Counted from the first letter of the stretch, positions 18,174 to 64,000 are shown. The stretch is DNA of 64,000 nt from Fimicolochytrium jonesii (GCF_025526975.1 NW_026515682.1:620001-684000), one strand, 5' to 3'. Numbers and translations: made by a program. Notes: generated by a model from the letters alone, not told the origin.

Positions 18174-19089
18174 CACGAAATATATAGGAATATGCATATA
18201 ATCACATTACAGCCGTAAATGTCTGAAATTTTTTGGAAGGAGGTTCATCATGGCCGCAGCGTATCGGGTCCGATAAGCCTTACCTACCACCCATGCCAAT
18301 TGATTCCGAATATCTTGACGTCCGTGGGTGTGCGAGAGGTCAATGACTACGGTATATCGGGCCAGATAACGTGGGTGAACCCGCGTTCTGTAATCCGCGT
18401 TGCTAATGAGAATCACAAAAATCACGTTTTTCTGTTTTTGGGCGCACAGCGGAAATCAAAGGGGGGATGAGGTGGACAGGGGGATAGACATTTTTGTTAC
18501 AGCGTGCTGCTTGGGGTGGTAGAGGTCAATAAATCTTCATAATGCGGTGACCTGGGAAATACGGGGGAGAAGGAGGACCTGCCTGCAGTGACCCATCCTC
18601 CTGAGCGGACGGGGCACTGGCATCCATTCCAAGCTCGTTATGTGAATTGAACTTCTTGTGAGTGACGGGAATGGCCTGCGGACGCGTGCTTTAGCCCAGG
18701 GTCTAGTTTTGAAGTTTTGAACAGAAACGCGGTGAGTCGGTGACGCGCTTCAACAGCTGGTTTGTCAGCAGCCTTGGAAGAACAAGGAGGTTTTTCCAAA
18801 CAAGCAAAACCTTGGCATCCGTCCAGGGGAATAGCAATAAGTTCCAGACCAATGCGAAACGTGGATAGACAGAAGGCGGGTTTGTTTTTAGTGAAGCATG
18901 AAAGTCTCTTGGTGGACTCCCCAACAGTATCCTTTGTAAGCTAGTTCGGGTATGTCGTCCGGGGAGAATCTCATGGTTGGGCACAGAAGCAGTTGACCAA
19001 CGGCCTATTCTCTTGTAGCACTCACTTGTTTGGCTCCGAGTAGCGGCTTGCTGCAATAGTCCAACAAAGTCCCACCTGGATCAGCACAT

Positions 19090-34402: not shown

Positions 34403-34933
34403 TGTTAAGAATGGGCGGAGCCGACGGAAATAGAGGCGACTTGTGGTGCAGGTTGTTGACAGGTAATGGTATTCAGACCGAAACAAGAACTAGAACAAGA
34501 CTAGGAAGAACTGGTGTTGATCTGCTGGGGGATCAGGAAGTGGGGAGCTCAGGGGAGGCGGCTATTTATGCTTTTCTGGGAAGGCTGGGGAAGCGTGGGG
34601 AAGCAGAAGGGTACGGAATGAGAGGGAAGCCAAGAGAAGCGCCAAGGGTGGGGGAAGCATAGAAACAGAAGACTGGGGATGGGGTGGCTACGCTGAGGCT
34701 CTGGGCGGGTACGTGGGGAAGTATGAAGAAGGGTTTGTAAGCGCCGAGTGTTGGGAGGTGTGGCTACGTGCGGCTGCGTGGAGAAATGAAGGCAGTGGCA
34801 GGTGTGGGGTAGCGCGGCTGCGTGCGGCTGCGAGGTTTGGCAGATGTCAGGTTTTGACAGGGAATTGACATTGACTGACTGTTGGGATGCTGTCATGAGG
34901 TAAGCGCATGGTATGGACGCGTCGTCCATAACA
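34403..34933 (-). repeat. Solo LTR of gypsy family C
   Basis: TG...CA; TSD TGTTG at 34398-34402 and 34934-34938; matches 46761-47279 and 52068-52586. Confidence 0.95.
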
Positions 34934-42739: not shown

Positions 42740-44073
42740 CGCATGGAGCAAGACTGCCCGAGTACGGAATGCGTCGAACCTTTAACCCCGTCACCAGCGG
42801 AGACGATCGTGGTATCCGCAGAAACGACGATTGAGGCTACGGAGGGTGAAGACGAGCTGTCCCACTTTTTCCACCAGTACGACCTCACAGAAGAGGAACG
42901 AGTTTATGCACTCAGCATCCTCGACATTATCTTAGCGCCCTCGATCGACCAACTAATGGGAACGTGGGACAATGGTCACAGAATTTTAGATGTTACACTC
43001 CATGCGCCCGTCCGAAGTCGAAACCCACATCTCGAGTTAGGGGAAAGTTTCAGGCGAAGGGCGCGTACTGGGGTCTGCGACGCCCTCGATCGTCCGGGTG
43101 GTTAGGATGGCTGGGTGTCTGTATTATAGGCGACCGTTGTATAGAATGAAATGGAGCTCAAGCCATTAAGACTCGAAGACCTCCACGTGATCGACGATGA
43201 AAAGAAGCTTGCGTCACGTGATCAAAGGAATTGGGCTATGCTCCGACATGCCATGTATGTAGGCGTAGAGAAAGATACACTCAAGCAAGTGGCCATAAGT
43301 GGCTGTTAATTCCTTAGCGAAACGCTCGCCGATCCTTCTCTCATGCCAAGGTTTTCCGAACGTTCCATAAGAAGCTCCGGTCGGAGGAACTCAATTACCT
43401 CGTGTGTAACGTCATCGGGGCCTGTGGATGGGCAGGCAATAGATTGTCAAGGAAAAACAATCGTATCGCCGACCGGCCGCAGGGCTCTCCGATGACGTTA
43501 CACCGTGTCAACGCTGCGCACTGATCTGCAGGGAAACACCCATGCCAGCGGAGTTGTAGTGGTCACGTAAGCATACATACCGTCATTAGGCTCGTAACTT
43601 GGCGATATTGCATGGAAGAGGACTCCCTTCTGTTTTGCTCTGAGACGGGTCGGATGACCACGTACTTGTTTTTTCCGTGCCAAGTTGTCTTGCCTGCCGC
43701 CATGGAGTGCTCGCCCACCGCACAGAAGGCCGGGTGAAAACGTGACCTTGGTGGGGTGAGCATCACGGTTTGGCTCGCAGCTATAAAGACCAGCTATCTC
43801 AGTGCCTGCTCGGCCAATTGCTCACAGACATATCACCCCAGAGGGAAATTGATTCAGGAAATCATCTGTGTCGACTCACAAGAATCAACGCACCTACCAT
43901 GTATGTATGAGGCTAGTGGCTTGTTGCTCTGGCTTCCTACCTTGCGTATAGGCAGGCTGCTCGTCGATGGGCATATCGGGCTGCACACTGACTTCCGAAT
44001 TCTCGGGCATTGCTTTGGTTGCCAATCCATTGCCGTCCTATCACTTCCACAGAATACGCACACAGTACCGAAA

Positions 44074-45232: not shown

Positions 45233-45898
45233 TGAAAACCAAGTTTGACAGCGCGTAAACCCCGCAGCCTTATGGCCTTATGGGTGTGCCTCGACGGTAT
45301 GCTGTCAATTACCAATTAACCGCCAACCAGGCACTGCCTTGGGATGGGCCTTCGCTCCGGCACGATGTGCAAAGTATATAAGGTAACCGAGGGGGGTTTT
45401 GCCGCCTGCATTATCGTCGAAAGCTCTAACTAACGCGCAATTGCACCCCTGGGGTACACGTAGTGCACCCAGAATCCGATAGTTTCTTGCAACTCGCCCA
45501 ACGGCCTCTGGAACCACACGCAATGGCCCTTTGGGAAATTTGCATTCACGGTGCACGTTTCCCAGCCACTTACCCTTCATCTTGAGATCGGAATGTATCA
45601 AGTTCTCGCATACTTCAAGGTGTTTTACTTTCCATTCGCCCAACGGCACCGGGGAGTGACTACACTGTTGTGCCCACTGCGCCGAGCGCTGCGTCACTCC
45701 CACCTCGGAGCTGGTACACACTTTCCGGGTCGACCCTGCCAGTTGCCCCGCCAGCTTCTGAGTACCCATCCCACGAACAACCTGTTTCACCTTGCGTAGG
45801 AAGCTTGTAATTTTGGCCAATACTCCTTGGACAAACTACCAGGACCTTGCATCTTTTTTAAAAAACCAGAGCGGGTGGTTTTGGTCGTCCAAAAAAAG

Positions 45899-45971
45899 AA
45901 AAGGGGTGTTGTTACGCTAGTTTCGTAGTCCTTTATAAGATATCACCAACTAGCGTGACAACACCCCTTTT
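45899..45971. repeat. 24-bp inverted repeat (1 mismatch) with a 25-nt spacer
   Basis: AAAAGGGGTGTTGTTACGCTAGTT / AACTAGCGTGACAACACCCCTTTT. Confidence 0.9.
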
Positions 45972-46105: not shown

Positions 46106-46760
46106 TCATGCTGATGACACCACCTTGTCGATCGACCTGACTCCGGAATGGTTCTCCGGCTCCCGTTCGACGCGCAGACAAATATTGTCCAAGCATAATT
46201 GGATGAGCGTGAGGGAGTCCCTCTCGGGCTTGTACATGTGGCGCCGGTACAGTCCATCTCTTACCAGTTTTGATTTATATAGACGAAGTTGGAACGCATT
46301 GAGAACGGCCGCGACAGGTCCGGAGCGGTAATCTGGAACAGGCAAATGGAACGCAAACTGTTATTTTATCGTTTCGAGAGGTGTCAGTGTGGACAAGTTA
46401 TCGGGCAAGGAGAAATTTTGACGTGGCTCCAGAGTGACGCCGTTCTCGGCTAGAATTTGATTGACAATGTGGTCTATAGGATCAGTATATGAGACGAGAT
46501 CCCAATCCCAGTCAACAGTAGCCGTACCGTAAGCCAACTCATCAACGCAGTCCATCAGTTGTGGTGCACGCTTCCAGATCACCGCTAGATCTCCTTTGTG
46601 TGCTTTGTGCTCAAACTTTTCTCTAAAAAGGTACTTCTTGGCTTTGAGTCGCATGTCCAGGTGGCCGCAATTGTCGTGAATGCGGGTCAAAAGATCCTGG
46701 AAAGTATCCCGGTCAATAATGTCAATCCGTGAAAAGTTGAACGTGCAATCAAGATCCTTT
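46106..46760 (-). pseudogene. C-terminal piece of the split primase-helicase gene
   Basis: In frame with 52587-54098 across TSD CCTTT (KKLAK-DLDCTFNFSRID); one TAA at 46361-46363, after which the frame continues to 46106. Confidence 0.85.
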
Positions 46761-47291
46761 TGTTATGAATGGGCGGAGCCGATGGAAATAGAGGCGACTT
46801 GTGGTGCAGGTTGTTGACAGGTAATGGTGTTCAGACCGAAACAAGAACTAGAACAAGACTAGGAGGAACTGGTGTTGATCTGCTGGGGGATCAGGAAGTG
46901 GGGAGCTCAGGGGAGGCGGCTATTTATGTTTTTCTGGGAAGGCTGGGGAAGCGTGGGGAAGCAGAAGGGTACGGAATCAGAGGGAAGCCAAGAGAAGCGC
47001 CAAGGGTGGGGAAGCATAGAAACAGAAGACTGGGGATGGGGTGGCTACGCTGAGGCTGTGGGCGGGTACGTGGGGAAGTATGGAAACAGAAGACTGGGGA
47101 TGGGGTGGCTACGCTGAGGCTGTGGGGAGAAATGAAGGCAGTGGCAGGTGTGGGGTAGCGCGGCTGCGTGCGGCTGCGAGGTTTGGCAGATGTCAGGTTT
47201 TGACAGGGAATTGACATTGACTGACTGTTGGGATGCTGTCATGAGGTAAGCGCATGGTATGGACGCGTCGTCCATAACATCACCCCGTCCT

Positions 47292-50200
47292 TTAGCCACG
47301 GCGTCCGGATGTTGTTTTGATGTTGGCAGGCTTTGGTCGGGGTTTGTCGGGGTACTTTTGGTGGAACTGGGCAACAAGCTCTTGACATCGGGCAAGGTGT
47401 TCCACTGGCTCCCATGTGTTCTCCGAGCTTGGCCAACCCTGCCACTTGATGAGGTACTGAAGGTGCGTGCGTCGAATACGGGAGTCAAGAATGTCTTCCA
47501 CAATCCATTCCTCCTGTCCTTCGACTTCTTCTGGTGGGGTGGGTTCTGGCTCAGTTCGCTCCGGAATGGTGAAATGTGGTTCAAGAAGGGAGACATGGAA
47601 GACGTTGTGAATTTTGTAGGATGGGGGAAGCTTGAGGCGATATGTGACCGAGTTGATCTTCTCCGTGATTGTGCAGGGGCCAATCTTACGGTGATCAAGT
47701 TTCTGGGAAGGTCGGAGAGTCTTGAGATTCCGCTGTAAGAGCCAGACACTGTCCCCAGGTTTCATGTCTGGGCCAGGTGCCCTCTTAGCATCGGCAAAGC
47801 GCTTCATGCGTCCTTGGGCCTCCTTGAGCTCAGTGGCAAGCTGTTCATGGATTTCCTTGAGATGGTTGGCACGAGCTTCGGCTGCAGGATTAAGGGATTC
47901 GGTTGTGGTGGCGGAAGCCAGACTGAATCGAGGATGGAACCCATAGTTGGCGTAGAAGGGGGTTGTCTGGGTGGCGGAGTGGATGGTGTTATTGTAAGAG
48001 AACTCAGCAGAAGACAAGAGTTCCTTCCAGTTATCTTGTTGATAGTTGCAAAAGCAGCGAAGGTATTGCTCAAGAATCTGATTGGTCCGCTCGGTTGAGA
48101 GGTTGACCTTGGTTCCCAGGAGAGCGAAGAGACGTTTCCAGAAGTGGGAGTTGAACTGTGGGCCACGGTCAGATACAATATCATCGGGGAGTCCATGGAG
48201 CCGGATGACATGGTGCCAGATCAGATCTGCAGTTGACTCAGCGGTGGCAGTTTTCCTGCACGGTACAAAGTGCGCCATCTTGGTGAACCGGCAGATGACA
48301 ACGAGCACAGAATCAACCCCATTACTGGCGGGTAGATCCGTGATGAAGTCCATGGAAATTGACCCCCAGGGGCGGTCAGGGACCTGCAGGGGTTGGAGGA
48401 GACCGTAGGGCTTGTGTCTGCTGGTCTTGGCTTGAGCACATACGTCGCAGGACCTGATGTAGGACTTGACAAAACGCCACTGGCTAGGCCACCAGTAGTT
48501 GCGTGAGATGAGCTCCAGGGTCTTTGACATGCCGTAGTGTCCTGCCAAACGCGTGTCATGCATGTCCCGGCAGATCTCAGCACGGAGCTTGTTGGTGGGG
48601 ACGTAGACAAGGTTGTCGTACAGCAGAACCCCATTTTCCTCGGAGAATCGCTTTATCCGTTCTTGGTCTTCTTGAGATTGCTGGGCAATGGGGGCCCTAA
48701 GCTGTCGCCGGATGGTTTGCGCAAACACATCGGATGCCAGGGCAGCTTTGATTTGGTCAAGGAGCGAGGAGTCCAGTGGGGTCAGATAAGTGGCGGCCAG
48801 GCGGAGATGGTCAGGGGTGAGGATCGTGGTTTCCTGGGAGCGGAATGCTTCTTCCCCCTCCCTTAGCTCGTATTCAGAGCGACGAGAGAGGGCGTCAGCT
48901 TGGTGTTGCTGGGTACCAGGGCGGTATGTGATGACAAAGTCGAAATCAGCAAAGAAGATTGACCAGCGGGATTGGCGGCGGTTGAGGGTACGGGTAGTCA
49001 TGAAGTACTGGAGGTTCTTGTGGTCACAGTAAACGATGACCTTGTGGCGGGCACCAATGAGGTGGTGTCGCCATTGAGCAAATGAGTCTTGGATAGCCAG
49101 GAGTTCCTTGTCGTAGATCTCATAGTTGATTTCCTCAGGAGTAAATTTGCGGGAGTGAAAGGCCACGGGGTGGAGTTGATCTGTGTCATCCGGTTGAAGG
49201 AGGACGGCGCCAAGGGCAAAGTCGGAGGCATGGGATTCGACAATGAAGGGCTTGTCAGGGTCGGGGTGAGTCAGGATAGGTGCGGAGGTGAAGGCTTTCT
49301 TGAGGGTTTCAAAAGCTAGGTGTGCAGCGTGGGTCCATTTGAATGGCAAGTCTTTGCGAGTGAGCGTGGTCAGGGGTGCAACGATCGCAGAGTACCCTTT
49401 GATGAATCGTCCGGTAGAAGTTGGCAAAACCAAGGAAGCGCTGGATGCCTTTGACATTCGTCGGGGGTTCCCATTCGGTAATGGCAGCCGTCTTCTTTGG
49501 GTCCATGGAAATGCCTTGCTGGGAGATGATAAACCCCAGGAACTCAACAGAGTCACGGTTGAATTCGCATTTTTCCGGTTTCGCATACAGCCCGTGCTGG
49601 CGGAGCCGTGAGAGCACCTCTCGGACGTGATCGGGGTGGTCTTCTGGGTTTTTTGAGAAGATCAGAATGTCGTCAAGGTAGACCACAACAAAAACGTCGA
49701 GAATGTCACGGAATATGTCGTTCATGAGGTGTTGGAATACTCCAGGGGCATTGGTGAGCCCAAACGGCATGACATTATACTCGAATAGGCCGTAGCGACA
49801 TCGGAACGCTGTCTTCCATTCATCCCCTGGCCGGATCCGAAGAAGGTTGTAGGCTCCCCGGAGGTCAATCTTGGTGAGCCGGCGTGCCCCTTGAAGACGA
49901 TCCATGATGCTGTTAATCAAGGGCAAGGGATAGCGATTCTTGATGGTGATATTGTTGAGTCCACGATAGTCGACGCACAGACGGAGGGAACCGTCCTTTT
50001 TCTTGACAAAGAGGACTGGGGCACCGGCGGGAGACTTGGAGTGCTTGATGAACCCCTTAGCTAGGTTCTCTTCAAGGTAGTCACAGAGTGCCTGCATTTC
50101 AGGCTTGCTGAGACTATAGATCGGGCCGAACGGTGGCTGTTTGCCCTCTTCTAAGTTGATGGGACAGCCGTAGGGTCGGTGCTCTGGGAGGGTATCCGCG

Positions 50201-51110
50201 TTCTTCTTGGCGAAGACGTCCGCAAAATCTTGGTATTCTTCAGGAATGATGGCCTTCGGATCTTTTGGAGAAGTGGTCGCCAGGGCTTGGGAATCTGACT
50301 TGGTTGGATTGGCGTAGGCAATGAATGCCTGGTCATGCCTTGCCGCCACACGGAAAGCTGGGGCGCTGTTAAACGATACGTGGATCGGTGTGGGTGCTGG
50401 GTCCAGTGTGTTGGGTGTCTGGGCTAGGGAGACTGAAATCTCGTCTTGATGGATACGGATCAGAGGTTCAGGGGTTCTTGAGGGCTTCAGGCTAGGTTCT
50501 GTTGGCCGGACATCCCAGGAGGCGTATTGTCCAAAACCGCAATGGCAGCGGACGCAAAGAGTGCGAGTCTTCCAATGTAGCTCCACATCATGGAGCTCAA
50601 ACCAGGGAAGCCCCAGGATGATTGGTGCATGCGGGGAACATGTCACATGGAATACCACCTCCTCAAAATGGTCGTTGACCCACATGCCCAAAGGTTGGGT
50701 GTGATGGGTAATGGAGCCCGCATGGCTGGGACGTCCGTCAACCAGTTCAAGCGCAATGGGGTCCTCCTTCTTGACAAGTGGGATGCGGTGCTTGCGGGCA
50801 TAACTTTCGTCGATGAAGCACAACATCGCACCGGTGTCGAGTAGTGCTGAAAGCTGAACTGGAGCACGCTGGGCCGATATCTGCAGGGTAACAGGGTACT
50901 AGAATGGTGAGGATGGGCCCAAAGTCCGCATGGGTGAGGGTATCTCAGATAGGAGATTGACATTGTTGGTGGTCAGGAGAAGGGTGTTGCTGGAGATGCC
51001 AGGATCGGAGCAAGGTTTTGTGGCTTCTCCCTTGGCAGTACTTGCGTGGTGAGAAGGCCCAGGACAGGTATTGCCCAGCTGCTCGGCCTTTACTGCAGCT
51101 GGACTTGGGC
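47292..51110 (-). pseudogene. Pol of family C element
   Basis: [37 protein letters not shown] / IVSDRGPQF; chromodomain EWIVEDILDS..LIKWQGW..NTWEP. Frameshift near 49410 and loss of the AFHPQxxGQ motif. Confidence 0.93.
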
Positions 51111-52037
51111 AAAATCCTGGATGGGTGCAGGTTCCTTAACCGCGACATTCGCCGTGCGTATCTTGTTCGGGCAGAGTTTGGCTATGTGGCCAGGTTTACC
51201 ACAATAGAGGCAAAGTTTGTTTGTGATGCGGTGTTGGCGCTCTAGCGGTGTGAGGGGTCCTCACGGACGAGCAGCGTCAATGATCATAGGGTCGTCTGGG
51301 CGGTTGTCGGGGCCCATGAGGGTGGGGCTAGTGGTAACTGGCACATAGGGCTGTCGGTTCCTGCTTCGCTCTAGACGGCGCTCAAACAATCGGTTGTCAC
51401 ATTGGATGGCCTGTTCCATCACGGTGTCGATTGAGGCGGTAGGGGGCATCGTGAGCATTAAGTCCTTGACGTCTTCTTTGAGGCCGCGACGGAAGGTGGC
51501 AATCAATGCCTGGTCATTCCACGACACATCGCATTGCAGCTGTCGGAATTCAGCTACATACTCTGTTGCTGCACGGGTTTGTCGAAGGTTCTGGAGCTTG
51601 TTTTCGGACGTGCGGATCCTGTCGCTGTCTCCAAAGACTGCTTGCATTTGCTGGATGAAATCATCCAGGTTCGTAAGGGAAAGATGGTCTTGTTCGACAA
51701 GGGGCGCCAGCCAGGCCTGGGCGGTGCCAGTGAGGTAGGTGCCAATAGTTCGTATCTTGGTCTGATCGTTGGGGTAGCGCCTGGGTTGGAGGGCGAACAT
51801 GAGCCGGATCTGGTTGAGGAACCCACGGAACTTGCTTCGGGTGCCATCAAATTTGTCTGGGAGACTGATTTTGGGTTCGGGGGCGTGGGTGGCAGGGGCA
51901 GTGGTCTGGGTTTGCGCTAGTTCGGCTTGTAGGGTGGTATTCTGCGCTCGAAGTTCGTCAATCGCATTGCACATGGCTTGCCAGGCTTCGGCCGTGAGGG
52001 GAAGGGCGTCGGACATGGTGATTTGGCGTGGAGGCAC
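51088..52037 (-). pseudogene. Gag of family C element (premature TGA at 51261)
   Basis: PDKFDGTR, LTGTAQAW; the frame resumes with CLYCGKPGHIAKLC; closely related to the family A gag. Confidence 0.9.
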
Positions 52038-52586
52038 AGCGGCTGAGGGTTGTTGAGCAGATCAAACTGTTAAGAATGGGCGGAGCCGACGGAAATAGAG
52101 GCGACTTGTGGTGCAGGTTGTTGACAGGTAATGGTGTTCAGACCGAAACAAGAACTAGAACAAGACTAGGAGGAACTGGTGTTGATCTGCTGGGGGATCA
52201 GGAAGTGGGGAGCTCAGGGGAGGCGGCTATTTATGTTTTTCTGGGAAGGCTGGGGAAGCGTGGGGAAGCAGAAGGGTACGGAATCAGAGGGAAGCCAAGA
52301 GAAGCGCCAAGGGTGGGGAAGCATAGAAACAGAAGACTGGGGATGGGGTGGCTACGCTGAGGCTGTGGGCGGGTACGTGGGGAAGTATGGAAACAGAAGA
52401 CTGGGGATGGGGTGGCTACGCTGAGGCTGTGGGGAGAAATGAAGGCAGTGGCAGGTGTGGGGTAGCGCGGCTGCGTGCGGCTGCGATGTTTGGCAGATGT
52501 CAGGTTTTGACAGGGAATTGACATTGACTGACTGTTGGGATGCTGTCATGAGGTAAGCGCATGGTATGGACGCGTCGTCCATAACA

Positions 52587-54098
52587 CCTTTGCGAGCTTT
52601 TTGAGACGGAACTTGCTTTCGGTAATCACCTCCGACAGGTCCAGAGGGGCAATCCCGATGTTGGCAATCTCACAGAACAACTTGAGCGTGTCGAGATTAG
52701 AGTTGTTCAAGCCGGCGAGGCGCTTGATTTCCAAATCGTCAATGAGCTGCTCGAAAACCATGCACTTGGGACGCCTTTGACCATCGCTGACGCGGCCTAG
52801 GCCTTCAAACAAATGAAAGCATGTGATCATGTTGGACAATTTTGGGTGGCGGACGCGATAGAGCGCTTGGGGGAAGTCTCGGGACGGGAGGATGAGCGCG
52901 TATAGACAGAATATTTGATCGGAAACGTCCTTCCTGTCAAAGTTTACGCCGACCAATATCGCGCTGTTCGTGACAATGCAACGCATTTCATTTCGGCCCC
53001 ATATCACGTTTGCATCGCATAGGTCCTGCTTTTCCTGCTCCTCCTCAGCATAGTAACTGAGAACCTCCCACTTGTCTGTCCAATCGAACGCCTTCAACAG
53101 TACCTGAGTGATGGTGTTGATCCCCTGTTTCCCTTTCTTGAAGGGGGTGAAGACGTAAAGCTTTTCCCCCACCTCAAGGGCTTGATACATCATGGCCACC
53201 CAGTTGTCAAACGCGCGGGGTGTGTCGTCGGGAGCCACAATACGTAACGTGCGAGATGTTGGCTGCCTTGCCGTTTTGAATACCTCCAGGTGATCGCTGA
53301 TGTTGCTCGACGTCTTTCGTATGAAGCCCTTCACTAAGTTTGTCGTCGCCTTCTTTGTCAACGCATCCATGAGAATGACTTTGGCGGCGTTATCTATGAC
53401 GCTATTAAAGGCCACCCAGTTCGTGTTGAGATTGTAATGCATATTGGCACCGCCTCCGAATGTGTTCAAGATCGTTTTGATCTCATCGCCAATGACAATA
53501 TCAAAGGGCTTTGAGAGGTAGTGAAGCGACTGGATCGAGCAGATAACATAAGGTCGTTGGTCTAGCGCCCCCACCCGCTTTTGCTCTACGGTGATCTTCG
53601 TGTAGTTGATAAAAGAGATCCCGGCCTCCTCTAGCCTCTGTTCCGTGTTGGCGCTAAGAGTGATCCGTGGAGCTAGCCACAAGACACGCTTGCCGATGCC
53701 GTATCGCTTGATGAATGCGACAACGGCTTCGGTTTTCCCGCTTCCCATAGGCCCAGTGAACGGAAAACTTGACCGATGGTCTCGTCCCCTCTGCCTGCGG
53801 AAAGAATCGTCTGACGCCTTTTGGGTCAATCGGTGCGACCTTTGGAGGTGAAATATCTCTGAAGTCATGGAACCGTCGTGCACGCCTTCCGCAATTCGAT
53901 CCTCCAATAGTTCGAATTGGTCTCGGAGGCGCAGAGTGACTTTTGTTTCCTTGATGTTCGGGAAGAACTGGACCAGGAGATGGTCAAGGAAAGAGCGCGA
54001 CAGGCCGTACTGACCACAGCCGCGCCAGGCTTCCTGTTGCTTTTTGAAGTACGTCACGCTCGAATCCTTTTGCTGAACCCAAGCCCAGAAGTCTTCAT
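52587..54098 (-). pseudogene. Middle piece: superfamily 2 helicase, UL9/origin-binding-protein-like
   Basis: GPMGSGKT (I), WLAPRITLS (Ia), ICSIQSLH, IVIGDEI (II), ILMDA (III), TNSAILVGVNFD (V), QALYRVR (VI); no introns. Confidence 0.88.
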
Positions 54099-54794
54099 TG
54101 TTATGGACGACGCGCCCATACCATAAGCTTACCTACTGACAGCCGCCAATGTCAACCGCCAAATGTCAAACGCCAATGTCAATGTCAATGTCAGTGTCAA
54201 TGTCAGTGTCAACGCCAATGTCAATGTCAATGTCAGTGTCAACGTCAGTGTCAATGTCAATGTCAATGCCACTCCCCCTCTCTCCTCTCATTTCGCCAAT
54301 CCTCTTGCAATATTGCCACTCCCTCTCTCTCCTCTCATTTTGCCAATCCTCTTGCAATATTGCCACTCCTCCTCTCTCCTCTCATTTCGCCAATCCCCCC
54401 TCGGCTTCTCCACACACCCCACTGCTTCCCCATAGCCAGCAGCTGTAGCAATGCTCTCTACGCTCGCCACGCACGCTCTAGGAGCATAGCTGGCGCCCCC
54501 CAGTCCCCTCTTGTTGTTGTTGTTCTCTGATCTGCTGGATTGCCTATCTATAAATAGCTGGCCTCTCTTCGTCCATTCCCTTCCTCCCCAGCAGATCAAC
54601 ACCAGTTCTTCTCATCTCCTGTTCTAGTCCCTGGTTCTTGTTTCGCCAATACAATCTCTTGTCGCCTATCACACTCGCCCTGTCTTCTCTACTTCGGTTC
54701 CGCCCCCGTTGTCGAGATCATAACAGTTTGATCTGCTCCAACACTGCAAAGTTCAGAACCGGTCCAGCCCTGCATCCGACAAACCTTTTTCGCC

Positions 54795-55793
54795 ATGTCC
54801 CAACCCGAATCCGTACCTTTCACCGCCAAGCAATGGAACGATATGTGCCAAGCCATCGCCGCCTTGCAAAGCCAAAACGCCAACTTGCAGGCTAACCTAG
54901 CGCAAGCCCAAGCCGACGCACAAGCTGCTCAGAGCATCGCCGCCCAGTTTCAAGCCGATACGTACACCCGTCCCCAAGTCGCCAACCCTGCTTTGGAGCC
55001 AAGAATCAGCTCGCCCGAGAAGTTTGATGGTACCCGCAGCAAATTCCGTGGGTGGTTGAACAACATCCGGTTGATGTTTGCTCTCCAGCCCGACCGCTAC
55101 CCCAGCGACATCATCAAGATCCAAACTATTGGCACCTACCTCACCGGCACTGCACAAGCCTGGATGGCGCCCCTAGTTGAACGCCAAGATCACAGCCTTC
55201 AGGACTTCGATAGTTTTATCAGTCAGATGCAATCGGTCTTCGGAGACAGCGACAGGCTCCGCACCTCTGAAAACAAGCTCCAGAACCTTTGCCAAACCCG
55301 TGCAGCAACCGAGTACGTCGCTGAGTTCCGCCAGCTACAATGCGATGTCTCCTGGAACTACCCGGCCCTGATTGCTACCTTCCGCCGTGGCCTCAAAGAA
55401 GACGTCAAAGACCTGATGCTCACAATGCCCCCTGCGGCCACCATTGATGTGGTGATGGAGCAGGCTATCCAGTGCGATAACCGACTGTTTGAGCGCCGCC
55501 TGGAGCGAAACAGAAGCCGCCAGACCGTCCCGGTTCCCCACACCTCGTTTACTACTACCACCACTGTCGACCACAGCGAGCCTATGAAGATTGACGCCGC
55601 TCGTCCCCGCGGCCCTCTGAGCCCTCAGGAACGCCAACGCCGCATTTCCAACAACCTCTGCCTTTACTGCAGTGGCGCGGGGCACATTGCAAAAGTCTGC
55701 CCCGTCAGGAACAAGACCACCACCCGTGCCGCCAACGTCGACATTCAAGAACCCTCCACCGAACAGGGTTTTCCCAAAGTCCAGCCGCAGTAA
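54795..55793 (+). CDS. Gag of family A element (332 aa)
   Basis: PEKFDGTR, LTGTAQAW, zinc knuckle CLYCSGAGHIAKVC. Confidence 0.93.
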   Translation: MSQPESVPFTAKQWNDMCQAIAALQSQNANLQANLAQAQADAQAAQSIAAQFQADTYTRPQVANPALEPRISSPEKFDGTRSKFRGWLNNIRLMFALQPDRYPSDIIKIQTIGTYLTGTAQAWMAPLVERQDHSLQDFDSFISQMQSVFGDSDRLRTSENKLQNLCQTRAATEYVAEFRQLQCDVSWNYPALIATFRRGLKEDVKDLMLTMPPAATIDVVMEQAIQCDNRLFERRLERNRSRQTVPVPHTSFTTTTTVDHSEPMKIDAARPRGPLSPQERQRRISNNLCLYCSGAGHIAKVCPVRNKTTTRAANVDIQEPSTEQGFPKVQPQ

Positions 55794-55810
55794 AGCCCCA
55801 GCGACTGGAC
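55766..55810 (+). promoter_or_regulatory. -1 ribosomal frameshift signal (G GGT TTT plus downstream hairpin)
   Basis: Heptamer is in the gag frame; the -1 frame is open into the protease; GTCCAG...CTGGAC stem. Confidence 0.75.
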
Positions 55811-58800
55811 AACACACACCGCCCCGGGCCTCCTAATCTCGCAGCTCCTGCAACGGGAGAGGCCATTCCCCTGGTTCCCGACTCCGTTATAGCCGACACA
55901 ACCCTCCTAGCCACTGCCCATGTCGAAAACTCCGAAATTAACCCCCGCGCCATGCTTGCGCTGGGTCCCGTCGAACCCTTCAACTACCCCGTTACCATCA
56001 TGGTATCATCCAGCCGCGCCCCAATACCTACCTCAGCCATGATCGACAACGGTGCCCTGTCCTGTTTCATCGACAGAGACTTTGCCCGCAAACACCGCAT
56101 CGCCCTAGTCCCGCATCAGCGTCCACTGACCATCGAACTCGTTGACGGTCAACCCAGCTCTGCTGGGCCAATCACCCATCACACCCAACCAGTAGGCATG
56201 TGGGTCGATGACCACTTCGAAGAACTCGTCTTCCATGTCACCAAATCACCCCATGCTCCAATCCTCCTTGGTCTCCCCTGGCTCCGCCTCCACGACATTA
56301 ACCTTGACTTCAAGAACCTTTCGGTCCGTTTCCGTTGCGACTGCCAGTACCATGAATTCGCGAATTGGGACAACTCTCCAGCACCCCCGAGCCCAGCACC
56401 CGCCAGAAGCCCCCGAGCCCTTGATCCGCATCCCCCAGGATGAAGTCCCCGTCGACAAAGCATGGTCGATTCCAGTACCCAAGGTATCTCGCTCCAGCAC
56501 CCCAGAACCGGCTCCCACGCCGCTCCGAGTCTCGTTCATCTCCGCCCCAGCCTTCCGGGTCGCAGCAAGGCATGACCAGGTCTTTGTCGCCTACGCCAAC
56601 CCTGCGAAACCCGATCTCCCGGCCTCGCCTAGCCCTAGTAACCCCCCTGACACCCGAGAAAGACATCAAAGACTTCCTGCCCCCCGAGAATCAAGACTTC
56701 GCCGACGTTTTCGAAAGGAGAAAGGCTGACACTCTCCCCGAGCACCGGCCCTACGACTGTCCAATCGATCTGGAAGAAGGCAAGCAGCCACCTTCCGGCC
56801 CGATCTACAGCCTCAGCGAACCAGAAATGAAGGCACTCTGCGAATACCTCGAAGAAAACCTCGCCAAAGGATTCATCAAATCCTCAAAGTCCCCTGCCGG
56901 TGCGCCAGTCTTATTCGTGAAGAAAAAGGACGGTTCTCTCCGCCTCTGCATCGATTATCGAGGCCTGAACAGCATCACGGTGAAGAATCGCTACCCCCTG
57001 CCCCTGATCAACGGTATCATGGATCGTTTGCGCGGCGCCCGCCGTCTCACCAAGATCGACCTCCGCGGCGCTTATAACCTCTTACGCATGCGCCCGGGCG
57101 ATGAATGGAAGACCGCCTTCCGCTGCCGCTACGGCCTATTCGAATACAATGTCATGCCCTTTGGACTCAGCAATGCTCCTGGCGTCTTCCAGTACCTGAT
57201 GAACGACATCTTCTGCGACATTCTCGATGTGTTTGTTGTCGTCTACCTCGACGATATCCTGATATTCTCCAAGAACCCCGAAGATCACCCCAAACATGTC
57301 CGCGAAGTCTTGTCCCGCCTCCGACAGCATGGGTTGTACGCCAAACCAGAGAAGTGCAAATTCAACCGCGAATCCGTTGAGTTCCTAGGCTTCATCATCT
57401 CCGAGAAAGGCATCCAGATGGACCCCAAGAAGATCGCTGCCATCACGGATTGGGAACCTCCCAAGAACGGTCAAAGGTGTCCAGCGGTTCCTCGGCTTTG
57501 CCAACTTCTATCGCCGATTCATCCAAGGTTATTCCAAGATCGCTACCCCGCTCACAGCCCTGACCCGGAAAGACATCCCGTACGCCTGGACACCCGCCGC
57601 AAACACCGCCTTCGAGAACCTGAAGAAAGCATTCACCACCGCCCCCATCCTTGCTCACCCTGACCCAGAGAAGCCCTTCGTCGTCGAAACTGACGCCTCC
57701 GACTTCGCTCTCGGCGCAGTTCTCCTCCAACCTGACCAGGACAATCAGCTCCACCCCGTGGCCTTCCACTCTCGCAAATTCACGGCCGAAGAGATCAACT
57801 ACGAGATCTACGACAAGGAACTTCTGGCCATCCAAGACTCCTTTGCCCAGTGGCGACACCATCTCATTGGCGCCCGTCACAAGATCACCGTTTACTCCGA
57901 CCACAAAACCTTCAGTACTTCATGACCACCCGCACCCTGAACCGCCGCCAAGCCCGCTGGTCGATATTCTTCTCGGATTTTGACTTCGTCATTACCTATC
58001 GCCCCGGTTCCCAGCAGCACCAAGCTGATGCCCTCTCCCGACGCTCCGAACATGAGCTAAAAAGGGGGAAGAAGCGTCCCGCTCCCAGGCAACCACAATT
58101 TTGACTCCCAAACGCCTTCGACTCGCCGCGGCCTACCTCACACCCATGGATACCACGCTGCTTGACAAGATTAAGGCCGCCCAGGCCTCTGATCCCCTCG
58201 CTAAGACCATTCGCGAAAAGCTCAAGATACCCCTCGCCCAACGAACCGAGGAAACCCAAGATCGTATCAAGCGGTTCTCAGATGAAGATGGGATCCTGCT
58301 GCACGGTAACCTGGTCTATGTCCCCACCAACGAGCTCCGAGCTGAAGTCTGCCACGACATGCACAATACACCCCTAGCCGGCCACTTTGGGATGTCCAAG
58401 ACGCTCGAACTCGCCTCCCGCAACTACTGGTGGCCCAGCTAGTGGCGCTTCATCAAGGCCTACGTCAAGTCCTGCGATACCTGTAGCCGAGCGAAATCCA
58501 GTCGACACAAACCGTACGGCCTACTCCAGCCCAACAATATCCCTACCCGCCCTTGGGGATCTTGGCCCCTGGACTTTATCACCGGTCTGCCCCCCGTGGA
58601 CCGGTACGACTCCATCCTGAACGTCAACCGTCGCCTCACCAAGATGGCCCACTTCATCGCCTGCAGCGAGTCAGAATCCGCCGAATCCACCGCCGACCTA
58701 GTCTTCCACAACATCATCCGTCTCCACGACCTCCCCGACGACGTCATCTCTGACCGAGGACCCCAGTTTAAGTCCCGGTTCTGGCGTCTACTTCTCGAAC

Positions 58801-59678
58801 TCCTTGGGGCAAAAGCCAACCTCTCCTCGGCCTTCCACCCCCAGAGCAATGGCCAGACGGAATGCACCAACCAGATCCTGGAACAGTATCTCCGATGCTT
58901 TTGCAACCACCAACAGGACAACTGGAAACAGCTTCTGTCGTCCGCCGAGTTCGCCTACAACAACACCCACCAGTCCGCCTCCCAGACCACCCCCTTCTAC
59001 GCCAACAAGGGTCTCCACCCCCGCTTCAGTTTCGCGGCCTCTGCTACCTCCGAATCCGTCAACCCCGCCGCTGAAGCCCGCGCTAAACAAATCAGGGAAG
59101 TCCATGAACAGCTCGCCCTTGAGCTCAAGGAAGCCCAAGATCAAATGAAGCGCTACGCCGACGCTAAACGAATTCCTGGACCAGACTTCAAGCCTGGCGA
59201 CCACGTCTGGCTCCTCCGCAAAAACCTCCAGACAACCCGGCCCTCTCAGAAACTCGACCATCGCAAGATTGGGCCATTCCCCATCGTTGAAAAAATCAAT
59301 CCCGTCGCCTACCGGCTCAAGCTCCCGCCTACGTACAAAATCCACGATGTCTTCCATGTCTCGCTCCTCGAACCCCGCTTCACCATCCCCGAACGACACG
59401 AACCCGAACCCGTGCCCCCAGAGACCGTTGAGGGTCAACAAGAGTGGGCTGTCGAAGCCATCCTTGACTCTTGCATCCATTGTCGTCGCCTGCAGTACTT
59501 GGTCAAATGGCAGGGCTGGCCTGACTCCGAGAACACCTGGGAGCCCGTGGAACATCTCACCCATACAGACGCACTCCTCCAGGACTTCCACAGCGCGTAC
59601 CCCAACAAGCCTTCCTCTGTCCCCGTAGCACCTCCTCTGCGGCCACACCAAACCCGACGCCGCCGCCGCCGCCGCTAA
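55766..59678 (+). pseudogene. Pol of family A element (several frameshifts, stop near 58440)
   Basis: [53 protein letters not shown]; chromodomain EWAVEAILDS..LVKWQGW..NTWEP. Confidence 0.94.
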
Positions 59679-60317
59679 AAGAGAGGGGTGATGTTATGGA
59701 CGACGCGCCCATACCATAAGCTTACCTACTGACAGCCGCCAATGTCAACCGCCAAATGTCAAACGCTAATGTCAATGTCAATGTCAGTGTCAATGTCAGT
59801 GTCAACGCCAATGTCAATGTCAATGTCAGTGTCAACGTCAGTGTCAATGTCAATGTCAATGCCACTCCCCCTCTCTCCTCTCATTTCGCCAATCCTCTTG
59901 CAATATCGCCACTCCCCCTCTCTCCTCTCATTTCGCCAATCCTCTTGCAATATTGCCACTCCTCCTCTCTCCTTTCATTTCGCCAATCCCCCCTTGGCTT
60001 CTCCACACCCCCACTGCTTCCCCATAGCCAGCAGCTGTAGCAATGCTCTCTACGCTCGCCACGCACGCTCTAGGAGCATAGCTGGCGCCCCCCAGTCCCC
60101 TCTTGTTGTTGTTGTTCTCTGATCTGCTGGGTTGCCTATCTATAAATAGCTGGCCTCTCTTCGTCCATTCCCTTCCTCCCCAGCAGATCAACACCAGTTC
60201 TTCTCATCTCCTGTTCTAGTCCCTGGTTCTTGTTTCGCCAATACAATCTCTTGTCGCCTATCACACTCGCCCTGTCTTCTCTACTTCGCTTCCGCCCCCG
60301 TCGTCGAGATCATAACA

Positions 60318-61172
60318 TTCATAGTCAATTCCAACGTCCCAACACCAGAGCATGACACGCCAGATAATGTCGTGCCGAAGAAAGCCGTCTTCCGCCCGCT
60401 TGGCGCAGGGCAAGATGGCAAGTTTGCCGAGAGGTTCTGCGGTGAGCCAACCGAAATCGGTGGGGACTTTGAGCGTTTTCTTTGGCAAAGCCAGGATGCT
60501 TAACTTGGTGGCAGGGGAGCCGTCTCGCCGTTTCGTGGCGAGTTCTGGAAGCATGGGAAAAGAGAGCGTCGCAATATCAACAGCATGGTCGTCAAAATCG
60601 TGCATTACTAGATGCTTTGACCATTCCGCGTCTCCCTCGATGTAAGCTTGCCTGGGTTGATTGGGCTTCGCCTGGTTGATGCACTTGAAGTTTCGATTTT
60701 TCGTGTAGACATGGGTGTCAAATCCTAGCTCTTTGTATTGATGGACGAAACGCACAACGGGTCCCATAGCCTCCAGGTTTTGCGCGTAGTAATTTGAAAG
60801 GATGATGTGCCAGGACCCTTCTCTGCCCGATATCTGGAGTCGGGCATTTTGAAACTCCCCGAGTATGACCCTCTTGATTTCGCTTAGCGGGGTCTCGGCC
60901 TTGTCCACGTCAAAGTAGAGTTTCCGCACATGGTCAGGCACAAGAATCTTGTAAATCCCGGCCTTCCACCTGAGAAGTTTGCACAGCTGTTCCCTGGTGA
61001 CGGCGGACCACAACCGGCCCTTCTTTGCCGTGAAGGATAAGATCGGGAACATTTCGTCCGTCAGATGGCGTAACACATGATCCTGTGTGCCGGTTTTGTC
61101 AACGTTGTTATTTCCGATCCATTCAATCTTCCATGAAGTGGCCTTTCGAAAAGCTGTGGCGTCGGCCGTCAT
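60318..61172 (-). pseudogene. N-terminal piece: archaeo-eukaryotic primase (PrimPol/large-DNA-virus type) and start of a PriCT-like domain
   Basis: KLYFDVD (DxD), GSWHII (SxH), FDTHVYTKNRNFKCINQAK; joins 54093 in frame across TSD TTCAT (WDVGIDY-EDFWAWVQQK). Confidence 0.88.
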
Positions 61173-61294: not shown

Positions 61295-61825
61295 ATGGGC
61301 GTTCCTCTTTACAAATACACGGCGGTGCTCTCTCTCCCGACCCGTGACGTGCAAGCAGTGTTCACTGCAAACACGCTACAGGGACTCTCACAGCAGCTGG
61401 GCTTATGTCCAGACACGATTCACCGGCTGGTCGTCAAAGGTGACAATACAGGTTATAAGAAACTGGTGCCTTTCAGTATCAAGCGGGAGGCGTTGCCGAA
61501 GGCCATCATGACGTCGAAACCTGCAAACATGAACGGTTGGAAGGTTCCGCCCATGGGTGGTGGTCCGACGCCGGTTACCCAGACTCCCATTGCCGGCGTC
61601 TGGACGAGCAAAGTGAACGAGGATACCCGGTCGGTGATCGTTATGGCAAAAAAAGGTGGACTTTTCCGGGAAAGGGAGGGGGAAAGAAAGGGTCAAGGAT
61701 TTTCTGCCTGTAGAACAACTGAAGATGCTCGGTCGGTTCAAGGGATGCAAGATGGGTTGACTCCCTGCCGATCCGGAGGCCAAGCGAAGGAGGTCAGCTG
61801 GATATATTTTGGAACAACCGGTTAA
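61295..61825 (+). CDS. Small ORF divergent from the primase-helicase; N-terminal HTH-like segment
   Basis: ATG ~120 bp from the primase start; TLQGLSQQLGLCPDTIHRLV helix-turn-helix pattern; 3' half uncertain. Confidence 0.5.
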   Translation: MGVPLYKYTAVLSLPTRDVQAVFTANTLQGLSQQLGLCPDTIHRLVVKGDNTGYKKLVPFSIKREALPKAIMTSKPANMNGWKVPPMGGGPTPVTQTPIAGVWTSKVNEDTRSVIVMAKKGGLFREREGERKGQGFSACRTTEDARSVQGMQDGLTPCRSGGQAKEVSWIYFGTTG

Positions 61826-62454: not shown

Positions 62455-63260
62455 GTGCTGCCCAAGACCGCAATGGACGCAAACCCATGCTCAACTCTGT
62501 TCACAGAAGACTTGAAGAGGGCTTTTCGTATATCCTGCCGACTGCTTCCCGGCTCCAGTGGGTGCCCTTCTATACAACCTGTTGCACGCAGTGCCAAAGA
62601 AGTTTCGGCACGAATGGGGCAGGGTATAAGACACATATTGGGGCGCTTCAATCAGAGCCGCTCCCAGAGTGGCCCTTCGAGGCCTGGACATCACCATATG
62701 GGGCACGTGCAATCCGCCCTTGATCAAGAAGTGCACGCATAGGTTGGAATTAAACCAAGGATCAAAGGTTGCAGCCTTTGGACTACTTTGGCTAGATGAA
62801 GCGCGATCGTGTTTGGAGAAAACCGGTACTGGAATCCCGCATCGAGAATCAAAATTAAAAGATGGATCTAGAGAGCCTGTGAGACTAAATTTCATTGAGA
62901 TCACACGCTCCACACCGTATAATACAAAGATGGAAGTCTTACAGAAACAATTTGAGGCCTGCTCCTACGCTATCAGGTGAACCACGGTACATTTCCATAT
63001 TCCTGTACATGCGAGCGGAAGTATGGATGTTTCGTTATGCGTTCTATGTACCATTCGTGCAGAGGCAACAGGAGCTCGCTCTCCAAAGCCTGCCCTTTGG
63101 CCCATCGCCGACTTTTGTCATGCATTCTTATATGCATGATATCGCACTCCATGATGCGCAGAGACTCGATACAGTCCTCTCAATGGCCACGCAAACCGAG
63201 GAATTCCACCCTTTGCCTGACGAACTGGGATGCGTCTGTGGCAGTTCCTACATTGCGTAG
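62455..63260 (+). pseudogene. Decayed ORF paralogous to the region near 38050-38420
   Basis: 21-nt exact match TTTTCGTATATCCTGCCGACT (62523 vs 38143) plus nearby similarity; broken frames. Confidence 0.35.
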
Positions 63261-63773
63261 ATAGTATACCGTGCCCTCCTTCCCTTCCTCCAGGTGGTAG
63301 ACCTCCTCAAAGGCCTGTGCGTCACATGCGGCCCTCCCCTCCCTCTCCCTCGCCACTGAGCACATGCAGTTGTGCATCGAACGGAGTCCCAGTGTTTTGG
63401 GAGTGATATGCTCCGCCAAGATTGAGAGCTTCAAGAGCTCTTCTGGTGTAAGGTGTCGTTGATCGTCGATGTTCCCATTGCAGAGCCCCGGCATGTGATC
63501 GGTTGCACACCTGAGCCAGAATCGCAGAAGAAGGCCGTCCGGACAACGCTCAGCGAGGTACGTATCATCATCAACTACCCTTGTGATTGGGAACCTACAC
63601 CCCAACAGCTTGTGGTTCAGCTGCCCAAACTTGCACATTTCCGAATGACGTGCGTGATCATGTAGTGCATCGAGTTTATCAAGGTGCAGTTCTACGTCCG
63701 AGAGCTGGTCGGTGAGCATGGCAAATGTTCGGATGATTGGGTCGGTCCCGTTGGGGAGTGGAGGAGATACCAT
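63180..63773 (-). CDS. Intronless hypothetical protein (197 aa)
   Basis: ATG-to-stop ORF with an N-terminal coiled-coil-like stretch (DPIIRTFAMLTDQLSDVE); 3' end uncertain. Confidence 0.5.
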   Translation of the reverse strand: MVSPPLPNGTDPIIRTFAMLTDQLSDVELHLDKLDALHDHARHSEMCKFGQLNHKLLGCRFPITRVVDDDTYLAERCPDGLLLRFWLRCATDHMPGLCNGNIDDQRHLTPEELLKLSILAEHITPKTLGLRSMHNCMCSVAREREGRAACDAQAFEEVYHLEEGKEGTVYYLRNVGTATDASQFVRQRVEFLGLRGH

Positions 63774-64000
63774 TTGGAGGTCGCTTCGATGAAGAATGTC
63801 GGTTTTTGCCGTGCGTTTTCATTTCGTCCCAGGCGAGCTTATATAGAAATTCTCCAACTCAGGATGGACATGGCGCCCCCCGCTGCTGTGAAACACATTT
63901 CGCTCCTCTGTCTGTAATCGAAGGTTCGCCTGCGCTGGGACCTATCGTAGCATAGGGTATCTGTGACGCGTTCGGCGTTTCTCATATTAGACCGATAGTT

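What the first reader, a model, noticed from the sequence alone, without database searches (positions are those of the whole stretch)
46106..61172. Hidden ~1000-codon virus-like primase-helicase gene cut into three by two retrotransposons
Seen: removing 54099-60317 (TSD TTCAT) and 46761-52586 (TSD CCTTT) rejoins 61172-60318, 54093-52587 and 46755-46106 in one minus-strand frame. The junctions read WDVGIDY-EDFWAW and KKLAK-DLDCTF. There are no introns and only one internal stop (46361). Motifs give an AEP primase (YFDVD, SWH, D..VY..NR.F), a PriCT-like segment and an SF2 helicase with UL9-like motifs. Known: AEP primases and UL9-like origin-binding helicases are typical of large DNA viruses and related mobile replicons, not of core fungal genes. 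Inference: this is the replication gene of an endogenous DNA virus or self-replicating element, silenced fairly recently since both inserts have near-identical LTRs. An ORF caller sees only unrelated fragments.
Basis: partly seen in the sequence, partly recalled or inferred. Interest (0 to 1): 0.92.

Follow-up and report, generated by a model that had tools for sequence, protein, structure and literature searches.

The report
Broken virophage-type replicase with origin-like palindrome
A soil chytrid fungus carries a broken DNA-replication gene, likely from a small virophage-like virus, cut apart by two retrotransposons; beside it lies a 73-base inverted repeat, also found next to related genes in free viruses, that likely marks where the protein would start copying DNA.

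Summary
Confirmed. Two Ty3/gypsy elements with 5-bp target duplications split one 1004-codon gene. Its three pieces tile end to end on intact homologues. It is an AEP primase fused to a UL9-like SF2 helicase. The host is a spizellomycetalean chytrid.

The closest relatives are other chytrid-genome copies (up to 54% identical) and replicases of 7-30 kb virophage and Polinton-like contigs, not giant viruses. That family is known (YSLV7 helicase, cluster PC_0108). No capsid, packaging ATPase or integrase was found in the window.

New here: 134 nt past the stop lies a 73-nt inverted repeat with a TATA-containing spacer. Similar 62-74-nt dyads sit within 500 nt of the homologous gene in 14 of 30 loci and bracket it in 7. 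A DNA-first search recovered the replicase on 7 of 13 contigs with a 71-73-nt dyad, against 0 of 15 other lengths and 0 of 9 decoy loci. I read it as an oriS-like origin (about 0.5); a terminator hairpin is the main rival. My literature searches did not find it described. The scan held no look-alike sequence, only a note on a different UL9 fusion.

The parts
60318..61172 (-). Replicase piece 1 (285 aa): AEP primase domain (motifs YFDVD, SWH, FDTHVY) and start of a PriCT-like helical segment
   Evidence: Open frame; 54% identical to chytrid protein P0055 over 278 aa; homologue P0002 residues 4-212 align to PrimPol 7jk1, Z 14.8, rmsd 3.8 over 190 aa
54099..60317 (+). Ty3/gypsy chromovirus B; LTRs 54099-54725 and 59692-60317; target duplication TTCAT at 54094-54098 and 60318-60322
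   Evidence: pol broken by several frame changes and 2 stops
52587..54093 (-). Replicase piece 2 (502 aa): rest of PriCT-like segment, linker, UL9-like SF2 helicase (Walker A TGPMGSGKT, SLHY, MDA, GVNF, QALYRVR)
   Evidence: Herpes_ori_bp E 5.4e-10, DEAD, ResIII; 53% to P0040
53758..53873 (-). Stretch between two compensating frameshifts, just before Walker A (positions approximate)
   Evidence: Another frame matches P0040 at 63% over 19 aa; frameshift-aware alignment with 3 of 5 homologues
46761..52586 (-). Ty3/gypsy chromovirus A; LTRs 46761-47279 and 52068-52586; target duplication CCTTT at 46756-46760 and 52587-52591
46106..46755 (-). Replicase piece 3 (C-terminal helical region, where UL9 has its origin-binding domain); internal stop at 46361-46363
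   Evidence: 27-35% to the C-termini of homologues, best E 3e-22
45899..45971 (.). 73-nt dyad: 24-nt arms (23 of 24 paired) starting AAAAGGGGTG, 25-nt spacer with a TTTATAA core; candidate oriS-like origin, 134 nt past the stop
   Evidence: Best inverted repeat in the window, score 21 against at most 13 in 40 shuffles; only match of the family pattern in 64 kb; folding z -6.6
45308..45835 (-). Weak T5orf172 (GIY-YIG-type) endonuclease-like frame just past the dyad; may belong to the element
   Evidence: Pfam E 0.016, below the curated cut-off; no homologue found
61295..61825 (+). Divergent small ORF whose N-terminus resembles short viral NUMOD-like proteins; lead only
   Evidence: ESM Atlas scores 0.84-0.88, under the 0.9 lead threshold; no Pfam or PHROG hit

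Best explanation
The window holds a broken AEP-primase/UL9-like helicase gene, split by two Ty3/gypsy retrotransposons, that is likely the replication gene of a small virophage- or Polinton-like virus once integrated in a chytrid genome, and the 73-nt inverted repeat just past its stop is likely the origin this protein would bind. Shown: the gene, its five lesions (two insertions, two frameshifts, one stop), its family, the chytrid host, and the recurrence of the dyad beside homologous genes. Inferred, by analogy with HSV-1 UL9 and oriS: the C-terminal domain would bind the two inverted arms, the helicase would open the TATA-containing spacer, and the AEP domain would prime synthesis. Inferred history: the element integrated, lost or left outside this window its capsid and integrase genes, and was disabled about as long ago as element B arrived; element A followed. 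My odds: gene identity 0.97, small-virus source 0.85, dyad as replicase-bound origin 0.5.
For: Fold: the AlphaFold model of intact homologue P0002 (pLDDT 85) matches HSV-1 origin-binding protein best (Foldseek E 6e-17; VIA Z 26.2) and PrimPol for residues 4-212 (Z 14.8). Its best viral match is A0A0A0RKB1 (E 7e-58, 25%), named as the Yellowstone Lake virophage 7 origin-binding helicase in a supplement row of PMC7805220; giant-virus matches are 11-19% identical. Context: 24 IMG/VR loci lie on 7-30 kb contigs; 26 of 48 loci hold an A32-type ATPase and 20 of 48 a member of the tyrosine-recombinase cluster (duplicates included); 4 hold a Sputnik-type capsid. Tree: the window protein is sister to P0040 of Phlyctochytrium arcticum (SH 0.998), in a clade with 15 of the 16 chytrid-labelled proteins and soil locus L025. 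Host: the ABC transporter at 19060-23096 is 100% identical over 92% of the query to a protein named from Fimicolochytrium jonesii. Dyad: 22 of 28 dyads lie within 500 nt of the gene, which is 7.6% of the bases, in 14 of 30 loci. Dyad-containing repeats bracket the gene in 7 of 25 loci examined. One 14,976-nt contig has the dyad inside 662-nt perfect terminal inverted repeats and again after the gene. DNA-first scans: replicase on 7 of 13 contigs with a 71-73-nt match (5 new) against 0 of 15 other lengths; 3 of 4 contigs (1 new) with a second pattern; 0 of 9 decoy loci. Arm positions 11-22, not asked for by the pattern, pair 77% (n=19) against 29% (n=14) and 23% (n=5); the window pairs 11 of 12.
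Against: No capsid, ATPase or recombinase was found in the window with 41 profiles built from the related loci, and no second dyad or terminal repeat. So the element is unbounded here. 16 of 30 loci have no nearby dyad by my rule, and the rule was tuned on these loci. 6 of the 13 DNA-first contigs show no replicase in the stretch held (five are 4-6 kb fragments). Most dyads lie close to some gene's 3' end, often between convergent genes, as a terminator would. A scan with the window's own outer box found 1 locus, 58 nt long, without the replicase. The arms do not carry the HSV-1 box GTTCGCAC, and the RVKNL motif is absent from piece 3 (sequence). The C-terminal match to UL9 has rmsd 22.7 overall. 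No binding or replication was tested.
Confidence: 0.55

Rival explanations
1. The gene is the same viral replicase, but the dyad is a transcription-termination or polyadenylation hairpin, like the hairpin rule of mimiviruses and their virophages (recalled, no call).
For: 42 of 51 intergenic dyad calls have a gene 3' end on at least one side, and 17 lie between convergent genes; several start within 70 nt of a stop. One virophage contig has three dyads right after genes and no replicase in the 13.6 kb held. The window's dyad is downstream of the stop and folds well.
Against: Only 36 of 349 gene 3' ends have one. 5 lie between divergent genes and 4 between a contig end and a gene start, one of these inside terminal inverted repeats. 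They cluster at the replicase. A fixed 71-74-nt span, a conserved outer box and a 25-30-nt spacer are more than a hairpin needs.
Confidence: 0.25
2. The gene came in alone, as a mobile replicase cassette bounded by its own dyads, and never lay in a whole virus at this site.
For: No structural gene in the window. Dyad repeats tightly bracket the gene in 7 loci, including mid-genome in virophage locus L019. The family is patchy: cluster PC_0108 occurs in 9 virus clusters, at 1-12% of members in the 7 larger ones. A T5orf172-like frame is adjacent, as in the mobile-helicase model of PMC11296320.
Against: No upstream dyad in the 2.8 kb available. The closest free locus L025 has an ATPase and other genes around the cassette. 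No integrase is known for such a cassette. The window ends close to the start codon.
Confidence: 0.2
3. The gene is a relic of a giant virus (Mycodnaviridae or another nucleocytovirus) integrated in the chytrid genome.
For: Giant viruses encode the same domain architecture (PMC11253617), and giant viruses of zoosporic fungi are described (PMC13533422). One distant homologue, P0044, lies on a 90-kb contig.
Against: Giant-virus matches are 11-19% identical against 25% for the virophage protein. All 24 viral loci lie on contigs of at most 30 kb. No giant-virus hallmark appeared among 42 window ORFs scanned. The surroundings are host genes and retrotransposons.
Confidence: 0.07
4. The gene is a vertically inherited or domesticated chytrid host gene that became a pseudogene.
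For: Its closest named homologues all come from chytrid genomes, and its GC3 (0.55-0.66) is host-like (0.57).
Against: No introns; several divergent copies per genus scattered across the tree and mixed with metagenomic sequences; the virus-type dyad is adjacent.
Confidence: 0.03

Closest known systems
Yellowstone Lake virophage 7 origin-binding helicase (A0A0A0RKB1); protein cluster PC_0108 of Bellas and Sommaruga 2021 (PMC7805220)
   Same: Same length class and architecture; best viral structure match for homologue P0002; found in both virophages and PLVs.
   Different: About 25% identical; the window copy belongs to a chytrid-associated clade and is broken. The rows and passages I saw give no cis element for this family.
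Powellomyces MELD viruses (Starrett 2021, PMC8502044) and the Spizellomyces punctatus PLV (PMC7805220)
   Same: Small integrating DNA viruses in the same chytrid order. The Fig. 6 legend lists an S2H replicase similar to the YSLV7 helicase among MELD virus replicases.
   Different: The passages do not say which virus carries S2H, and I could not compare sequences. No capsid is present here to assign a group.
HSV-1 UL9 and oriS (PMC12543377)
   Same: Same helicase family, best solved-structure match; oriS has inverted binding boxes around an AT-rich spacer, as the dyad does.
   Different: UL9 has no primase domain; the box sequence and RVKNL motif differ; no third box was looked for; binding is untested here.
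SF2_hel of mriyaviruses, mimivirus R8, ASFV pF1055L (PMC11253617)
   Same: AEP fused to a UL9-like SF2 helicase.
   Different: Those lie in 35-45 kb or giant genomes; giant-virus members are distant.
PLV end-module model (Barth 2024, PMC11296320)
   Same: Proposes that inverted repeats next to a primase-helicase act as its origin, that helicases flanked by repeats are mobile, and that T5orf172 genes go with them.
   Different: That work concerns D5-like SF3 helicases and whole terminal repeats. Here a defined 71-74-nt dyad with a conserved outer box follows a UL9-type replicase.
Retrotransposons inside endogenous virophages and PLVs (bioRxiv 10.64898/2026.07.28.741278, which also cites Ngaro elements in Cafeteria)
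   Same: Host transposons invade and break integrated small viruses.
   Different: Here the invaders are two Ty3/gypsy chromoviruses, both in one gene. The 52-nt terminal palindromes of that preprint have a loop of at most 10 nt by its search settings, unlike this dyad.

Membership tests
AEP-PriCT-SF2 (UL9-like) primase-helicase | AEP fold with three catalytic motifs | tested here: met
   Homologue P0002 model aligns to PrimPol, Z 14.8, rmsd 3.8, 190 aa; profile hits PrimPol at E 0.011; DxD, H and D motifs intact in piece 1.
AEP-PriCT-SF2 (UL9-like) primase-helicase | SF2 helicase of the UL9 subfamily | tested here: met
   Herpes_ori_bp 38.5 bits, cut-off 20; UL9 is the top match by profile and by fold.
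AEP-PriCT-SF2 (UL9-like) primase-helicase | PriCT-2 domain between the two | tested here: inconclusive
   Pfam PriCT_2 hits 3 of 24 homologues, all distant, and 0 of 36 more; profile alignment places that segment on the stretch cut by element B, with modest column confidence.
AEP-PriCT-SF2 (UL9-like) primase-helicase | C-terminal origin-binding domain | tested here: inconclusive
   VIA alignment runs to model residue 949 and UL9 residue 831 but at rmsd 22.7; the domain was not folded alone; RVKNL is absent.
Endogenous Polinton-like virus | Major and minor capsid genes and A32 packaging ATPase | tested here: inconclusive
   None found in the window with 41 profiles, but no chytrid-type capsid profile was on hand and only 2.8 kb lies upstream.
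Endogenous Polinton-like virus | Tyrosine recombinase or RVE integrase; terminal inverted repeats | tested here: inconclusive
   No recombinase hit outside the retrotransposons; no terminal repeat pair in the window.
Endogenous Polinton-like virus | Replicase of a type carried by PLVs and virophages | tested here: met
Virophage (Sputnik-type capsid) | Virophage capsid protein and cysteine protease | tested here: inconclusive
   Capsid profiles from the related loci find nothing in the window; the element is not bounded.
Mycodnaviridae / giant endogenous virus | Hallmark genes (capsid, PolB, D5, capping enzyme) in a gene-dense region | tested here: inconclusive
   None among 42 window ORFs scanned; the rest of the genome is not held.
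Herpesvirus oriS-type origin | Two inverted boxes around an AT-rich spacer | tested here: met
   oriS layout from PMC12543377.
Herpesvirus oriS-type origin | UL9 box sequence GTTCGCAC | tested here: not met
   Arms start AAAAG(T/G)GG; the HSV-1 box is not in the window's arms. It works like oriS at most; it is not one.
Herpesvirus oriS-type origin | Bound and unwound by the cognate helicase; supports replication | not testable with these tools
   Needs biochemistry.
Ty3/gypsy chromovirus (both inserts) | TG...CA LTRs, 5-bp target duplication, gag-PR-RT-RH-IN-chromo order | tested here: met

The most novel reading that the evidence does not exclude
The UL9-like primase-helicase and its flanking 72-nt dyads form a self-contained replicon cassette, an initiator-helicase-primase with its own oriS-like origins, that moves among virophages, Polinton-like viruses and chytrid chromosomes. 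It would be a small-virus form of the UL9/oriS system of herpesviruses, with origin and protein diverging together by clade.
Probability: 0.3. Interest if true: 0.82.

Novelty: new variant of a known kind. Interest (0 to 1): 0.62.

Why it matters
How virophages and Polinton-like viruses without a protein-primed polymerase start replication has been proposed but, in the passages I read, not shown (PMC11296320). A short, recognisable dyad tied to one replicase family gives a concrete origin candidate that a single protein and a 73-nt DNA can test. If it holds, it links small protist and fungal viruses to the UL9/oriS mechanism of herpesviruses, and it gives a DNA-only probe for these viruses. 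The locus also shows that such viral relics in chytrid genomes escape gene callers when retrotransposons cut them. The replicase family, chytrid PLVs and transposon invasion of endogenous viruses are each already known.

Tried and rejected
No whole genome is held, so other copies and the region past 64000 could not be searched. No sequencing run was listed and no RNA holder was listed, so the frameshifts were not checked on reads. A single-sequence fold of piece 1 failed (pLDDT 35) and was not used. Piece 2 found nothing in the GenBank phage collection or, as a single query, in IMG/VR. tblastn and 41 profiles from related loci found no further viral gene in the window. The T5orf172-like frame found no homologue; the ORF at 63183-63818 gave no Pfam hit and Atlas scores of 0.77 or less. 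No upstream copy of the dyad was found. The second inverted repeat at 32599-32686 lacks the outer box and TATA core and was set aside. No Rfam family matched 42000-64000. A plain alignment of 18 dyads did not hold register. The pairing test is biased by its own filter and missed the window's dyad, so I replaced it. L025's recombinase-like ORF is read from motifs by eye; neither Pfam nor my profile confirms it. The 13 distant loci L036-L048 gave no dyad under the rule, though three show another repeat. The supplement of PMC8502044 gave no hit for Powellomyces or S2H. Iyer 2005 is not held. Supplements of the bioRxiv preprints are closed and may bear on novelty.
Full report
Observation. Element A (46761-52586, minus strand) has the duplication CCTTT; element B (54099-60317, plus strand) has TTCAT. 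Both are Ty3/gypsy chromoviruses. Their LTRs differ at 3 of 519 sites and at 9 sites plus 1 gap in 627. The three remaining pieces add up to 1004 codons with one internal stop at 46361-46363. They tile end to end on 20 homologues.

A correction. Between about 53873 and 53758 the true frame is another one. It matches P0040 at 63% over 19 residues, and a frameshift-aware alignment finds two compensating shifts with 3 of 5 homologues. The gene therefore has five lesions. Element B's pol has several frame changes and two stops in about 3.6 kb, and only 7 of 107 near-invariant residues of the replicase are changed, inside the 1-12% range of 25 homologues. Both fit a gene that died about when B arrived. 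Whether the shifts are real or assembly errors is open, because no reads were listed.

The protein. Piece 2 hits Herpes_ori_bp at E 5e-10. I folded intact homologue P0002 with an 18-sequence alignment (pLDDT 85). Its best solved match is HSV-1 origin-binding protein on oriS. Residues 4-212 match human PrimPol (Z 14.8, rmsd 3.8, 190 aa), and the three AEP motifs are intact in piece 1. PriCT-2 is supported only through three distant homologues. The C-terminal region aligns with UL9 only at high rmsd.

Host and relatives. An ABC transporter in the window is 100% identical to a protein named from Fimicolochytrium jonesii, Spizellomycetales. The search for longer homologues of piece 2 gave 24 proteins, none closer than 40%, so no intact near-identical copy was seen. 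All homologues with an organism name are from chytrids. In a 63-sequence tree (865 columns, FastTree, rooted on three distant proteins) the window protein is sister to P0040 (SH 0.998). It lies in a clade holding 15 of the 16 chytrid-labelled proteins, with several copies per genus scattered and metagenomic sequences mixed in. The root is distant, so I draw no direction of transfer. The family is large: 912 representatives at E 1e-30 or better.

What carries the gene. The 24 IMG/VR loci lie on 7-30 kb contigs; 24 more came from metagenomes. Of the 48, duplicates included, 26 hold an A32-type ATPase and 20 a member of the tyrosine-recombinase cluster; four hold a Sputnik-type capsid. The closest free locus, L025, has an ATPase and a methyltransferase-like gene. 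The best viral structure match is A0A0A0RKB1, the YSLV7 origin-binding helicase, representative of cluster PC_0108 in virophages and PLVs. In the window, 41 profiles from these loci find only the replicase. A weak T5orf172-like frame and a small NUMOD-like ORF are leads. Only 2.8 kb lies upstream, so the element cannot be bounded.

The dyad. At 45899-45971, 134 nt past the stop, 24-nt arms flank a 25-nt spacer with a TTTATAA core. It is the best inverted repeat in 64 kb: score 21 against at most 13 in 40 shuffles. L025 has the same layout on both sides of its gene. In 30 protein-first loci (left out: near-duplicates L013, L023, L032-L034 and the 13 distant loci L036-L048), 22 of 28 dyads lie within 500 nt of the gene, which is 7.6% of the bases; 14 loci have one and 16 do not. 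That rule was tuned on these loci, and tandem copies are not independent.

Independent test. Scanning IMG/VR with the outer box and a central TATA gave 33 loci on 28 contigs. Thirteen contigs have a 71-73-nt span; 7 of them carry the replicase in the stretch held, 5 of these new. None of the 15 others does. The remaining 71-73-nt contigs that were scanned look like virophage or PLV pieces. A second pattern gave 3 of 4 contigs, 1 new. A decoy gave 0 of 9 loci. The window's own box variant gave 1 unrelated locus. Arm positions not in the pattern pair 77% in the 71-74-nt class, against 29% and 23%. Dyad-containing repeats bracket the gene in 7 of 25 loci examined, 5 inverted and 2 direct. One 14,976-nt contig has the dyad inside 662-nt perfect terminal repeats and again after the gene.

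Mechanism. HSV-1 oriS is two inverted boxes around an AT-rich spacer, bound by UL9's C-terminal domain (PMC12543377). By analogy the replicase would bind the arms, open the spacer and prime with its own AEP domain. This is inference. The main rival is a terminator hairpin: 42 of 51 intergenic dyad calls have a 3' end on one side. But only 36 of 349 gene ends have a dyad, 5 lie between divergent genes, and one pair sits in terminal repeats. The mimivirus hairpin rule behind this rival is recalled and comes from no call.

Literature seen. Passages only: PMC8502044 (supplement searched, no hit), PMC7805220 (supplement rows), PMC11296320 and its preprint, PMC11253617, PMC13533422, PMC12543377, bioRxiv 10.64898/2026.06.19.733378 and 10.64898/2026.07.28.741278. 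Chytrid PLVs, this replicase family and transposon invasion of endogenous viruses are in print. Searches did not turn up the dyad or an oriS-like origin for this family. The library lacks most subscription papers, I did not open most listed hits, and preprint supplements were closed.

Earlier scan notes. No look-alike by sequence and nothing in this genome. One note describes a PolA-like domain fused to a UL9-type helicase on a lake virus contig; I did not test it.

Verdict. The split gene is real and of a known family. The recurring origin-like dyad is the new part. Interest 0.62; new variant of a known kind.

Noticed in passing
window 4555-8598 (-): A copia-type pol (RVT_2, rve, retroviral SH3) has a weak chromodomain hit (E 0.0015, below cut-off) between integrase and RT, and Ty3-type capsid hits lie in the ORF upstream. 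This may be a nested or chimeric element.
   Followed up: no
window 19060-23096 (+): Nearly intron-free ABCB transporter among retrotransposons. It is 88% identical to a Gaertneriomyces protein but at most 55% to other listed homologues; transfer between chytrids is possible.
   Followed up: partly
window 34403-34933: Solo LTR 94% identical to the LTRs of element A, flanked by TGTTG on both sides.
   Followed up: partly
window 38143-38216 and 62523-62590: Two short stretches are 76% alike and both read VGRIYEK on the minus strand; no family was found.
   Followed up: partly
window 32599-32686 and 43404-43503: Two further inverted repeats score above 40 shuffles (19 and 15 against at most 13) but lack the outer box and TATA core.
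   Followed up: partly
window 63183-63818 (-): A 212-aa ORF rich in Cys and His, with a stop and then a further open stretch; no Pfam, PHROG or Atlas assignment.
   Followed up: partly
L054, L078, L070: Looser AAAAGTGGG...TATA...CCCACTTTT dyads of other lengths lie within about 250 nt of D5-like or DUF927 primase-helicase genes; perhaps an analogous origin.
   Followed up: no
L016, L017, L040, L041: Other branches of the replicase tree carry dyads with other outer boxes (TTGCGG; GTGGTAG), some in three copies per contig; origin and protein may diverge together.
   Followed up: partly
L010-L013, L021, L022: In six loci the replicase is split near its C-terminus into a long ORF and an ORF of about 95 aa; a shared natural split or frameshift is possible.
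   Followed up: no
P0007 residues 1-250: This homologue has an N-terminal extension that looks by eye like a second, degraded AEP domain.
   Followed up: no
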